A stretch of 64,000 nucleotides of DNA, from NCBI RefSeq assembly GCF_056746865.1, contig NZ_CM163382.1; one strand, 5' to 3'. Each line of letters opens with the position of its first letter. Position 1 is the stretch's first letter. This document shows positions 30,001 through 33,000 of the stretch, in pieces. Position numbers: made by a program.

Positions 30001-33000
30001 ATCAAGCGCGAAGTCGCTTATCGCCAGCAAATTGGATACCTCGAGAAAGTGAATAATGATTGGCTCGAATCATTGCCTGTACGTGATATGATGGAGTTTG
30101 GTTGGATCCCCAAAACTACAACTCGGGAAAGTAAATTCCAGCACTGCCTATCGTTTTTCGGAATAAATTCCGTCAATGATTTTTTTTATAAAATTCAGTC
30201 AGATGCTCCTTTGGTCGCTTTTCGTAAATCTCTTAATCTGGCAACCGAGCCTATGGCCGATTTGGTGTGGCTGACTAGGGCTGCACAACTTACCTCAAAC
30301 CAAAACTGTGCTGTATGGGATAAAGAGGGGCTGATAGCATTGTTGCCAGAACTGCGCAAAGCTACAAATGAACCCGACATGAGGATTTTTATCCCTTACA
30401 TTCGCGACCTTCTCGCCACTGCTGGAGTTTCTCTCGTTGTGTTGCCAACGCCAAAGGGATGTCGGGCAAGTGGTGCTACCTGCTTTTTTACACCAGATCG
30501 CGCAACCCTAGTCATGAGTTTCCGTTATCTGACCGATGACCATTTTTGGTTTACGCTGTTTCATGAGATTGGGCATCTCATCTTGCATGAAGCTGTCCGA
30601 GTTCGCGTAGAAGGTAAAGATAGTCTTTCGTCGGAAGAGGAAAAGGAAGCAGATAAATTTGCCGTTGATGTTCTTATCCCAGAAGAATACCGGCAGCAAC
30701 TTAGTCGCTATGGTGTCCGGCATTGGAAAGAGATCATCCGGTTAGCTAGGAAAATGGGGGTATCCAAAGGGATCGTACTGGGATATTTGCAGCATGAAGG
30801 TAATATACCTTTTTCTCACCTTAATCGGTTTAAAGTGAGATTCCGTAAAGAAGATATCGTCTGATATCAGCCGCCGAAATAGACATAACGGTCAGGTGAT
30901 TTCTGCCAGTTGCACAACGCATCTTCAATAACCTGCATTCTCAAGTAGGGTGCAGGAATAATTGCCGCAAGGTCAGCTAGTTTTTCATTCAATACGTCTA
31001 TTGTGTCACCAGCAGTCCGGCTATTGCTGAAAAGTAGCCGGCTTCCTTGAAGGGGCCCGGTTGCTCCATTCAGAAAAGCATGACCCGGCTCTACATCCAG
31101 AAGTCCCGTTTTCTTGAGCATAGTTAGGTAATCAAATTTTGCGGTTCGTCCAAATGAGATCACGGCATTTAGCCCTGAATACAATAGTTCGAATAAAGAT
31201 TCTGGTGAAGATGAAAAGCTCTTGGCCTCTGCAAACCTAGCCTCATGACTGTGTGTAGCACCAATGAATCCGATGTAAGAGCGAAAAACCGCAGGTATTG
31301 AACGACGAGAGTGATATTTCTTCGTTTCATATTTCCGATGGTTACCATATTGTCTTAGGCTACTGTTAGCTGTCAACTCATCAGAGACGCTGGCGAACCA
31401 TTGTTCAAAAGCAGCAAAGTCATCAGTTATCGTATCCCATGTCCACGTTTGTGTACCGAGTCCACTGTATATATCTCGACACAAAATCCAGCCGGTTTTG
31501 TTACTCTTGCCGAAATGTGTGGCAAGGAAAACCAGCCAGCAGGCTTCATCGTAATTGTTGTCACGAAGATAAAGGCAGGCAGCGCGGAGAGGATCAAAAA
31601 CATCAGAATTCGGCTCTTTTCGTAACGGAGTCATATAATCGGTCCGTAATGCAAGAGTTTCCACATAGCGTATACGACGTATACTGTCGATAATCTGACA
31701 GGCTAAAACATCAAAGCAGGCAGGAGAACTTAGGCCATTTAGGTTGTGTTCATTGCGGCTAAAATTTTGCAAATTACTAACCAGCTGACTGATTTGATTA
31801 TGTCTTTTCATTGTAGTCTTCCTTCAAAAATAAACCGATATTCCTGATTTTTCATTGCAGCCAACTCTTGGAAGGCTAGTCCTTTGTGGTTGGGTGTATG
31901 TGAACGTAACAAAAAGTGGATTTTTAATATACGCAATAAATCCTTCCAGTAGTCATTCAAGGAAGTAGTGTCAATATCAAATTCCTTATTCTCTCGAAGA
32001 GCTTTTTCTGCCTCAAGCAGGGGTAAGATATCATCTAAGGAATGCATTTCAGGCATCGATCCCATGACTGGTAGGGTGCTCATGAACCCCTCTTTCTGAA
32101 GAGCCTTCACTTTTTCTAAATCATTTTTATAGAGATGTAGGCTGGATACAAAGTGATGATAGTGACCCAATTCGCATCCTATCAAGCGGGCAACTAATTC
32201 CTGTAGCATCGTGAACGCAAATACATCATGAGGCAGCCCCATAAAGGCATCGTTAGAACGCATACAAACAAATAGATGCAGCTCTTCACATCTGACAATA
32301 AACTGCATAGATATTGTACAAGGAATATCTACGTATTCTCGCTGTTCAGTTTTTGAGGGCACCAAGTCTGAGGCATCGAAAAGCTGTATTACTGCACGTC
32401 TGGTAGGTTTTTTCTCCTGCAAAAGGTTGATAACATTTTTTAGCTGATTATATAAACCACGCATATTAAACAACCGTGGCCCGTAACCACCATGTATTTT
32501 CCCATCTGACTCAGCGGATTCAGCGTAACGTGGTATGAAGTGTTTTATAAACTCAAGATCGTTCTGAGCTGAGAGATACCACAGAAATTCACCTAAGCAA
32601 CTAATTAGTTTTCCTCGGGATTCTGTTCTACTTATTCTTCGGCGGGGGTCGGTAAGGACAAGATAGGCACCAAGAATCTCTAGAGTTGATCCTTTTGTAG
32701 GATCGTTACTGAGTCCATCCGCTAGGATAGCTTGATGAACATCGTTTATCAGATCGTCAACACACTCAGCCGTTACCAAAAGAGTCATTTTCTACCTTTT
32801 CCTGTATGGTAGTAACTAATCATTACCACCTGTATGGCATATAGTCAATATAGTATCAATATCAACATGGTTCACAGGGTAAGTAAGACTTGATCTTACC
32901 CAGCAATAGTGGACACGCGGCTAAGTGAGTAAACTCTCAGTCAGAGGTGACTCACATGACAAAAACAGTATCAACCAGTAAAAACCCCGTAAACAGCATT

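What the first reader, a model, noticed from the sequence alone, without database searches (positions are those of the whole stretch)
30867..32788. Thymidylate-synthase-like enzyme in a two-gene operon with an unknown 314-aa partner inside the defence island
The 326-aa protein keeps ThyA-fold catalytic signatures (Cys loop …DIPCTISMQFIV…, and …CMRSNDAFMGLPHDVF…) but is far too divergent to be housekeeping thymidylate synthase. It is translationally coupled (4-nt overlap) to a 314-aa protein I cannot classify.

ThyA-like pyrimidine hydroxymethylases paired with transferases are known from phage DNA-hypermodification pathways. Here such a pair is chromosomal, convergent with a HigB/peptidase module and divergent from a dGTPase. 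It could be a nucleotide-modifying or nucleotide-pool-targeting defence module, or a self-DNA modification system. The ThyA-like call is from motifs in the sequence; the role is inference.
Basis: partly seen in the sequence, partly recalled or inferred. Interest (0 to 1): 0.75.

Follow-up and report, generated by a model that had tools for sequence, protein, structure and literature searches.

The report
Bacterial hydroxymethyl-cytosine defence cassette candidate
The two genes are real, but they belong to a four-gene cassette conserved across many bacterial phyla, which pairs a predicted dCMP hydroxymethylase and a phage-type DNA-base transferase relative with a toxin-antitoxin-like protease module; it is probably an untested anti-phage system.

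Summary
Both ORFs exist as described: 326 aa at 31808..32788(-) and 314 aa at 30867..31811(-), with a 4-nt overlap.

- **The partner is classifiable.** It is a clade-3 aGPT-Pplase / amino-acid:DNA-transferase family member (Pfam E 5.5e-90). Its model's best structural match is the phage glycinyltransferase PUGT, and the Glu-x3-Cys motif is invariant.
- **The ThyA-like enzyme is closest to MilA**, a CMP hydroxymethylase (E 1.6e-41). It carries Asp188, Ser178 and Arg130, the cytosine/deoxyribose signature. I predict dCMP to 5-hm-dCMP, not thymidylate synthesis.
- **The unit is not two genes.** In 80 loci from diverse phyla, a convergent HTH-M78 peptidase abuts the transferase in 78/78 visible cases. 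The ThyA-like gene lies upstream in 76/77, and a small HigB-like gene in 63/77. About one third insert a UDG-fold gene.
- **The canonical phage pathway is incomplete.** No kinase is present. No phage in the collection searched encodes clade 3.
- **Defence status.** The peptidase resembles PD-λ-2 component B. DefensePredictor (Science 2026) lists this exact ThyA-like protein as a predicted novel defence gene, and it was not among the units they screened.
- **The dGTPase adjacency is incidental**: an IS3 lies between, and the pairing is not conserved.

Verdict: a real, widespread, uncharacterised candidate defence cassette. Component identities are solid; the mechanism is inferred.

The parts
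31808..32788 (-). MilA-like ThyA-fold enzyme, 326 aa; predicted dCMP C5-hydroxymethylase (RefSeq WP_000174035.1, annotated 'thymidylate synthase')
   Evidence: Pfam PF00303, E 6e-25. The best solved relative is MilA, a CMP 5-hydroxymethylase (E 1.6e-41, residues 26-304, including the MilA-type C-terminal helical domain). Family conservation over 77 sequences: Cys157 77/77, Ser178 77/77, Asp188 76/77, Arg130 67/77. These map to the cytosine and deoxyribose determinants defined for MilA, T4 CH and TS (PMC5175136).
30867..31811 (-). Clade-3 aGPT-Pplase / amino-acid:DNA-transferase-like protein, 314 aa (WP_000820616.1); translationally coupled to the gene above
29782..30864 (+). Xre-HTH + M78 (ImmA/IrrE) metallopeptidase, 360 aa; convergent with the transferase gene, stop codons 2 nt apart
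   Evidence: Pfam Peptidase_M78, E 2.4e-10, and HTH_3, E 0.0015. PADLOC PD-Lambda-2_B, E 8.7e-30, nearly full length; it also matches RmrA and CapP models. HEIGH lies at 261-265, with H261, E262 and H265 at least 95% conserved in 79 sequences. The gene is present, convergent and abutting in 78/78 loci where that side is visible.
29459..29785 (+). Small HigB-like protein, 108 aa (TTG start); 4-nt overlap with the peptidase gene
   Evidence: A homologue sits immediately upstream of the peptidase gene in 63/77 loci. A profile search finds 176 relatives, several named by JGI 'plasmid maintenance system killer protein' or 'toxin HigB-1'. There is no Pfam, PADLOC or PDB sequence match, so the HigB label is weak.
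32789..32895 (-). Retained about 105-bp upstream region of the operon, bounded by the IS3 end
   Evidence: Sequence read. The proximal about 100 bp are conserved with Enterobacter chuandaensis, including CAGGTGGTAATGATTnGTTAC. A promoter-like site lies at 32848..32819, but such sites are no more frequent here than chance. The IS3 junction is present in all 229 E. coli genomes that carry the full-length pair.
29049..29357 (-). MazG-like small protein, 102 aa; a possible lineage-specific accessory, divergent from the HigB-like gene
   Evidence: RefSeq names it 'MazG-like family protein'. It carries an EEVGE motif. A homologue occupies the same divergent position in Enterobacter (L010) and Providencia (L007-L009) but is absent from the other loci. 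It has no Pfam, NCBIfam, PADLOC or PDB match.

Best explanation
The finding is half of a conserved four-gene bacterial conflict cassette, most likely an anti-phage system.

**Effector operon.** One operon encodes a MilA-like ThyA-fold enzyme that should convert dCMP to 5-hydroxymethyl-dCMP using methylene-tetrahydrofolate. It also encodes a clade-3 aGPT-Pplase. This is a cellular relative of the phage amino-acid:DNA transferases, which attack C6 of a C5-substituted pyrimidine with an active-site cysteine.

**Control module.** The convergent operon encodes a HigB-like protein and an Xre-HTH/M78 peptidase, like components A and B of the abortive-infection system PD-λ-2. I infer that this pair senses infection and controls the effectors.

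**Proposed action (inferred).** On infection the hydroxymethylase diverts dCMP into 5-hm-dCMP. This diversion matters most when dCMP is released from degraded host DNA or from dCTP by the adjacent MazG-like protein. E. coli cannot re-phosphorylate 5-hm-dCMP. The transferase-like enzyme, joined by a UDG-fold glycosylase in a third of related cassettes, then acts on 5-hydroxymethylpyrimidine, most probably in DNA. The result is blocked phage replication.

**Shown:** component identities, active-site conservation and gene linkage. **Inferred:** substrate, product, trigger and phenotype.
For: - **Component identities:**
- **Active sites conserved across the family:** the hydroxymethylase keeps Cys157, Ser178, Asp188 and Arg130, and the transferase keeps E296 and C300. 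The cysteine and glutamate were shown to be essential in clade-2 enzymes (PMC8989533), and in PUGT the corresponding residues (E243, C247) contact the flipped base.
- **Four-gene linkage:** seen in 80 species of many phyla with otherwise unrelated flanks, with stop-to-stop gaps mostly within about 20 nt and often overlapping.
- **Control module:** the peptidase matches PD-Lambda-2_B at E 8.7e-30. PD-λ-2 is a validated abortive-infection system in which A is HigB-like and B is an Xre-peptidase fusion (PMC9519451).
- **Independent prediction:** WP_000174035.1 is listed as 'Predicted novel defense gene', log-odds 7.6, in DefensePredictor Table S10. The same paper validates another thymidylate-synthase-containing system (DS-4) and highlights an unvalidated aGPT-Pplase system.
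- **Defence-type neighbours:** type I R-M, dGTPase and MazG-like here; a Shedu-type SduA_C domain, type I R-M and HipA elsewhere.
- **Cellular, not viral:** none of 50,697 phage records encodes clade 3.
Against: - No phenotype exists. This cassette was not among the transcription units screened by DefensePredictor: Table S6 has no entry for it.
- PADLOC has no model for either enzyme.
- No kinase is present to make 5-hm-dCTP or to activate the hydroxymethyl group. It is therefore unexplained how a DNA-level substrate would arise outside hmC-containing phages.
- Hydroxymethylase rather than methylase chemistry is inferred only from similarity to MilA.
- No shared operator links the two promoters.
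- In E. coli an IS3 lies about 105 bp upstream of the operon in all carriers, so expression there is uncertain.
- The HigB-like assignment is weak.
Confidence: 0.45

Rival explanations
1. This is pure nucleotide-pool sabotage at the mononucleotide level. The hydroxymethylase sinks dCMP. The clade-3 enzyme acts on free 5-hm-dCMP, either derivatising it into a toxic or inhibitory analogue or cleaving it. No DNA chemistry is involved.
For: - No kinase is present, so 5-hm-dCMP is a dead end in E. coli (the E. coli kinase point is established knowledge from T4 gp1 biology).
- A MazG-like neighbour could supply dCMP from dCTP.
- The adjacent dGTPase shows that pool-depletion defences sit in the same island.
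Against: - The best structural match is a dsDNA-bound base-flipping transferase.
- A UDG-fold DNA-glycosylase-like gene is inserted in a third of the cassettes.
- The family is basic, with a median pI of 9.2.
- The MazG-like gene is confined to three enterobacterial genera.
Confidence: 0.2
2. This is a self-DNA hypermodification system. The cassette installs a 5hmC-derived base in the DNA of the host or its mobile element to evade restriction, as the phage pathways do.
For: Both enzyme families come from phage DNA hypermodification pathways. The cassette is carried on genomic islands and on a few plasmids.
Against: - No dNMP kinase or 5-hm DNA kinase is present.
- No cognate nuclease is present.
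- Obligate linkage to a PD-λ-2-type A/B module (78/78 loci) fits induced immunity better than constitutive marking.
- Clade 3 is absent from phages.
Confidence: 0.1
3. This is a toxin-antitoxin or addiction module that stabilises the island. The enzymes act as a metabolic toxin, and there is no antiviral role.
For: PD-λ-2 B is toxic alone and is neutralised by A. The cassette is carried by islands, IS-rich regions and plasmids.
Against: Homologous A/B modules were shown to defend against phage. DefensePredictor gives a high score. The cassette is broadly chromosomal and sits next to other defence genes.
Confidence: 0.1
4. This is a nucleoside-antibiotic-type secondary metabolism step, a MilA/BcmA-like route to free 5-hydroxymethylcytosine.
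For: The closest characterised homologue is MilA, from mildiomycin biosynthesis.
Against: - Ser178 and Arg130 form the deoxyribose signature. MilA and BcmA have Ala and Lys at these positions.
- The conserved unit does not include a MilB-like N-glycosidase or other biosynthetic genes.
- The context is defence or mobile DNA.
Confidence: 0.04

Closest known systems
Phage thymidine hypermodification clusters (M6, ViI, PaMx11, ΦW-14): dUMP hydroxymethylase + 5-hmdU DNA kinase + clade-2 aGPT-Pplase/AADT
   Different: This cassette is cellular, not phage. The transferase is clade 3, not clade 2. The hydroxymethylase has Asp (cytosine-type) rather than Asn (uracil-type). No 5-HMUDK or dNMP kinase is present. 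It is always linked to an Xre-M78/HigB-like module.
PD-λ-2 (Vassallo et al. 2022), a three-gene abortive-infection system
   Same: Both have a small HigB-like gene followed by an Xre-HTH + peptidase fusion. The peptidase matches the PD-Lambda-2_B model at E 8.7e-30 over nearly its full length.
   Different: PD-λ-2's third component, a P4-antitoxin-like protein, is replaced here by a convergent two-enzyme operon. The small protein does not hit the PD-Lambda-2_A or HigB models.
DS-4 (DefensePredictor 2026): thymidylate-synthase-like + dNMP kinase + 5-hmdU DNA kinase + TIR + NMAD2, validated in E. coli
   Same: Both are bacterial defence operons that contain a divergent ThyA-fold enzyme together with phage-hypermodification-type genes. 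The two ThyA-like proteins are 29% identical, E 1e-28.
   Different: DS-4's enzyme has Asn where this one has Asp188. DS-4 has both kinases, TIR and NMAD2, none of which has a detectable homologue here. DS-4's helical 'hypermodification' protein is not detectably related to clade-3 aGPT-Pplase.
MilA (Streptomyces CMP 5-hydroxymethylase) and T4 gp42 dCMP hydroxymethylase
   Same: MilA is the best sequence match (E 1.6e-41), including the C-terminal helical domain. The catalytic Cys and Glu, the His/Tyr pair and the cytosine-specifying Asp are all conserved.
   Different: This enzyme has the Ser/Arg deoxyribose pair, as T4 gp42 does, rather than MilA's Ala/Lys. It is not part of an antibiotic cluster or a phage genome.

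Membership tests
Housekeeping thymidylate synthase ThyA | Scores above the curated NCBIfam equivalog cut-off | tested here: not met
   The best score is 81.4 bits against a cut-off of 327.
Housekeeping thymidylate synthase ThyA | Asn (E. coli N177) that specifies uracil | tested here: not met
   Asp188 occupies this position here and in 76/77 family members.
Cytosine-nucleotide C5-hydroxymethylase (T4 gp42 / MilA type) | ThyA fold with the catalytic Cys and Glu and the His/Tyr ribose-binding pair | tested here: met
   C157, E67, H218 and Y220 are conserved. The alignment to MilA has E 1.6e-41.
Cytosine-nucleotide C5-hydroxymethylase (T4 gp42 / MilA type) | Asp for cytosine, and Ser + Arg for deoxyribose | tested here: met
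   D188, S178 and R130 are present. The determinants are taken from PMC5175136.
Cytosine-nucleotide C5-hydroxymethylase (T4 gp42 / MilA type) | The product is hydroxymethyl, not methyl | not testable with these tools
   This is inferred only from closeness to MilA and from the MilA-like C-terminal domain that replaces the ThyA tail.
aGPT-Pplase / amino-acid:DNA transferase superfamily | Pfam family match and the HhH-glycosylase-like fold of PUGT | tested here: met
   [not shown]
aGPT-Pplase / amino-acid:DNA transferase superfamily | Catalytic cysteine with a neighbouring glutamate | tested here: met
   E296 and C300 are invariant in 81/81 sequences. The spacing is the same as PUGT E243/C247. 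Structural equivalence was not superposed.
aGPT-Pplase / amino-acid:DNA transferase superfamily | Transfers an amino acid or polyamine to 5-phosphomethyl-dU in DNA | not testable with these tools
   This needs biochemistry.
Phage thymidine hypermodification pathway | A 5-hmdU DNA kinase (P-loop) accompanies the transferase | tested here: not met
   [quoted passage not shown] No Walker A motif occurs in ORFs between 28 and 36 kb of the window. Phage 5-HMUDK sequences themselves were not used as queries.
Phage thymidine hypermodification pathway | Encoded by a virus | tested here: not met
   The locus is in the E. coli chromosome. No clade-3 homologue was found in 50,697 phage records.
PD-λ-2 | Component B: an Xre-HTH fused to a peptidase | tested here: met
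   PDLC03982, E 8.7e-30, covering residues 15-341. The HEIGH motif is conserved.
PD-λ-2 | Component A: a HigB-like toxin-fold protein upstream | tested here: inconclusive
   Position and size fit, and JGI names some relatives as HigB or killer protein. There is no Pfam, PADLOC or PDB match.
PD-λ-2 | Component C: a P4-antitoxin-like protein | tested here: not met
   No PADLOC PD-Lambda-2_C hit. The conserved partners are the two enzymes instead.
DS-4 (DefensePredictor) | A dNMP kinase and a 5-hmdU DNA kinase next to the ThyA-like gene | tested here: not met
   phmmer at E<=1 finds none.

The most novel reading that the evidence does not exclude
This is a cellular immune pathway that uses phage-style DNA hypermodification chemistry against invaders. 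The cassette makes 5-hm-dCMP. Its clade-3 cysteine enzyme then substitutes or cross-links 5-hydroxymethyl-pyrimidines directly in DNA, with no kinase activation step. The modification marks or disables phage genomes, and in some lineages a dedicated UDG-fold glycosylase follows it. This would be the first non-viral DNA hypermodification pathway and a new mode of immunity.
Probability: 0.2. Interest if true: 0.85.

Novelty: new variant of a known kind. Interest (0 to 1): 0.62.

Why it matters
DNA hypermodification enzymes have so far been studied as phage counter-defence tools. This cassette puts two of those enzyme families under a defence-type protease/toxin-antitoxin control module. It is present in at least 219 of about 100,000 representative species genomes and in 4% of complete E. 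coli genomes.

If it is functional, three things would follow:
- It would show bacteria turning pyrimidine C5 chemistry against phages.
- It would give clade-3 aGPT-Pplases their first function.
- It would add a dC-directed arm to nucleotide-pool immunity, alongside dCTP deaminase and dGTPase.

The predicted active-site residues (C157, D188, C300, E296, H261/E262) make this directly testable.

Tried and rejected
- **PADLOC, NCBIfam and PHROGs.** None gave a family for the transferase, and PADLOC gave none for either enzyme.
- **The 108-aa protein.** It has no Pfam or PADLOC hit and no PDB profile hit, only an insignificant PHROGs match (E 0.018), so 'HigB' rests on JGI names alone.
- **Shared operator.** I tested whether the two promoters share one, which would show that the HTH regulates both. 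The longest shared k-mer averaged 8.17, against 7.94 in cross-locus controls, so there is no support.
- **DS-4's helical protein.** I tested whether its 'hypermodification' protein is a relative of clade 3. hhalign gave probability 0.07, so this is rejected.
- **Kinases.** I looked for kinases and found none.
- **Ordinary ThyA paralogue:** rejected.
- **dGTPase as a functional partner:** rejected. An IS3 lies between, and there is no dGTPase in the 80 other loci.
- **Papers not held.** Iyer et al. 2013 and Burroughs et al. 2015, which may already describe this gene neighbourhood, are not in the library. Figures of the DefensePredictor paper are not held either. I could not confirm that its Fig. 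6F/S12A aGPT-Pplase system is this cassette.
- **Promoter scan:** not above chance.
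Full report
**Observation.** They share a 4-nt ATGA overlap. The window is E. coli chromosome. The pair occurs at 99% identity or more in 231 of 232 matching genomes, out of 5426 complete E. coli genomes, always on the chromosome. RefSeq annotates the genes as 'thymidylate synthase' (WP_000174035.1) and 'hypothetical protein' (WP_000820616.1).

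**The ThyA-like enzyme.**
- Pfam gives Thymidylat_synt, E 6e-25.
- Every NCBIfam thymidylate-synthase equivalog scores far below its cut-off, the best being 81 bits against 327.
- Among solved structures the best match is not ThyA but MilA, the Streptomyces CMP 5-hydroxymethylase (E 1.6e-41). The alignment covers residues 26-304 and includes MilA's extra C-terminal helical domain. E. coli ThyA matches at only 1.5e-11.
- The MilA structural paper defines the specificity residues. Asp (MilA D186, T4 gp42 D179) selects cytosine, where uracil enzymes have Asn. Ala176 and Lys133' select ribose, where deoxyribose enzymes have Ser and Arg; the A176S/K133R mutant switches MilA to dCMP (PMC5175136).
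- The window protein has Arg130 (PTRRAVIQ), Ser178 (MRSND) and Asp188 (LPHDVF).
- Across 77 family members, Cys157 and Ser178 are invariant, Asp188 is present in 76/77, and Arg130 in 67/77.
- I therefore predict a dCMP C5-hydroxymethylase. Hydroxymethyl rather than methyl transfer is inferred from the MilA likeness only.
- The nearest phage homologues are about 33% identical or less.

**The 'unknown' partner.**
- It matches Pfam aGPT-Pplase3 (PF18746, E 5.5e-90) and ADDT (PF18724, E 1.1e-58). NCBI now names the cluster accordingly.
- Clade-2 enzymes of this superfamily are amino-acid:DNA transferases. They need a 5-hmdU DNA kinase to make their substrate, and they use a catalytic cysteine with a nearby glutamate (PMC8989533). 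In PUGT the corresponding residues, E243 and C247, contact the flipped base.
- In clade 3, the residues E296, D297, C300, N301, W302, Q303 and K304 are invariant in 81/81 sequences, with the same Glu-x3-Cys spacing.
- The family is basic, with a median pI of 9.2.
- No record among 50,697 phage genomes encodes a clade-3 relative. Ten plasmids do.

**The real unit is four genes.**
- Neighbourhoods in Vibrio cholerae, Bradyrhizobium and Providencia all show the same order. The ThyA-like gene is followed by aGPT-Pplase3. A gene of about 360 codons for an M78 peptidase lies convergent to it and abuts it.
- A scan of one genome per species returned 219 relatives. I analysed 80 loci from Proteobacteria, Bacteroidota, Actinomycetota, Chloroflexota, Acidobacteriota, Planctomycetota and others.
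- The peptidase gene is present, convergent and abutting in 78/78 loci where that side is visible. The ThyA-like gene lies upstream in 76/77. A homologue of the 108-aa protein lies just upstream of the peptidase gene in 63/77. Flanking genes are otherwise unrelated.
- So window 29459..29785 (108 aa) and 29782..30864 (360 aa; 4-nt overlap with the 108-aa gene; stop codons 2 nt from the transferase gene's stop) belong to the same system.
- The 360-aa protein combines an Xre-HTH with an M78 peptidase. Its HEIGH motif is conserved. It matches PADLOC PD-Lambda-2_B at E 8.7e-30, and also RmrA and CapP models.
- PD-λ-2 is a validated abortive-infection system. Its A component is HigB-like. Its B component is an Xre-peptidase fusion that is toxic alone and is rescued by A. 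Its C component is required for defence (PMC9519451).
- The 108-aa family has no Pfam or PDB match. JGI names several members 'killer protein' or 'toxin HigB-1'.

**Variants in related loci.**
- A MazG-like gene lies divergent from the 108-aa gene in E. coli, Enterobacter and Providencia only.

**What is missing.**
[quoted passage not shown] There is no Walker A motif in ORFs between 28 and 36 kb of the window.
- The canonical route (nucleotide, then triphosphate, then DNA, then phosphorylated base, then transfer) is therefore incomplete.
- The dGTPase (PADLOC E 1.5e-109) is separated from the pair by an IS3. That IS3 junction is present in all 229 E. coli genomes that carry the full-length pair. 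No dGTPase accompanies the cassette elsewhere.

**Literature status.**
- DefensePredictor (Science 2026, PMC13092281) lists WP_000174035.1 as a 'Predicted novel defense gene' in its table of predictions for 3,000 E. coli genomes, with log-odds 7.6.
- The protein is absent from that paper's table of screened transcription units.
- The paper validates a different thymidylate-synthase-containing system, DS-4, which combines a ThyA-like enzyme, a dNMP kinase, a 5-hmdU DNA kinase, TIR and NMAD2. Its ThyA-like enzyme is 29% identical to this one and has Asn in place of Asp188.
- The paper also highlights an unvalidated aGPT-Pplase system. I could not confirm that it is this cassette.

**Mechanism (inferred).** The A/B module probably senses infection and controls the effectors. 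The hydroxymethylase diverts dCMP to 5-hm-dCMP. From established T4 biology, E. coli cannot phosphorylate 5-hm-dCMP without phage gp1. The cysteine enzyme, joined by the UDG-fold protein where present, then acts on 5-hydroxymethyl-pyrimidine, most likely in DNA. The main open problem is how a DNA substrate would arise without a kinase. Rival explanations are a purely nucleotide-level sink or poison, self-DNA modification, an addiction module, and MilA-like secondary metabolism.

**Verdict.** The unit is redefined as a widespread four-gene candidate defence cassette. It is a new variant that combines known kinds, and it is experimentally untested.

Noticed in passing
window 29049..29357 (-): A MazG-like 102-aa gene (EEVGE motif) lies divergent from the HigB-like gene. 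The same arrangement occurs in Enterobacter (L010 8499-8765) and Providencia (L007 8465-8776) but not in other phyla. It could supply dCMP from dCTP, as T4 gp56 does for gp42. It has no Pfam, NCBIfam or PDB match.
   Followed up: partly
[not shown]
   Followed up: yes
L048 4839-5144, L059 4773-5135, L065 2781-3092, L066 4850-5152: In four loci an additional protein of about 100 aa (phrog_4887, E 8.7e-22, function unknown) sits between the ThyA-like gene and the UDG-like gene.
   Followed up: partly
window ~32896..34150: An IS3-family element with a frameshifted transposase is inserted about 105 bp upstream of the ThyA-like start codon. The junction is present in all 229 E. coli genomes that carry the full-length pair, so the native distal promoter region is lost in this lineage.
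   Followed up: partly
window 32795..32835 (-): Two CCATACAGG direct repeats flank an imperfect palindrome, GGTgGTAAtgattaGTTACtACC, just upstream of the ribosome-binding site. The core is conserved in Enterobacter. It may be an operator, but no matching site lies upstream of the HigB-like gene.
   Followed up: partly
window 30862..30869: The convergent transferase and peptidase genes end 2 nt apart with no terminator between them. Across 78 loci the gap is mostly between -21 and +24 nt, often an overlap. Converging transcripts must overlap, so antisense or collision-based regulation is possible.
   Followed up: no
window 34247..35500 (+): A dGTPase-family gene matches PADLOC dGTPase at E 1.5e-109. 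It scores 284 bits against the NCBIfam antiphage_dGTPase cut-off of 400, so it may be a divergent defence dGTPase.
   Followed up: partly
window ~18850..27630 (-): A type I restriction-modification operon (HsdR 1138 aa, HsdM, HsdS) is followed by an AAA-family ATPase gene and a hypothetical gene in low-GC DNA (33%). This may be a composite defence locus.
   Followed up: no
window ~35840..47000: Remnants of a P-fimbria operon (truncated papA, papB, papI) are interrupted by an ISCR2-floR-tet(A)-strAB-sul2 resistance region (GC about 60%). A multidrug-resistance insertion has landed in the chromosomal island.
   Followed up: no
L037 (Chryseolinea serpens) 5971-8316: This is the only locus with the transferase, peptidase and HigB-like genes but no detectable ThyA-like gene within 2.6 kb upstream.
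   Followed up: no
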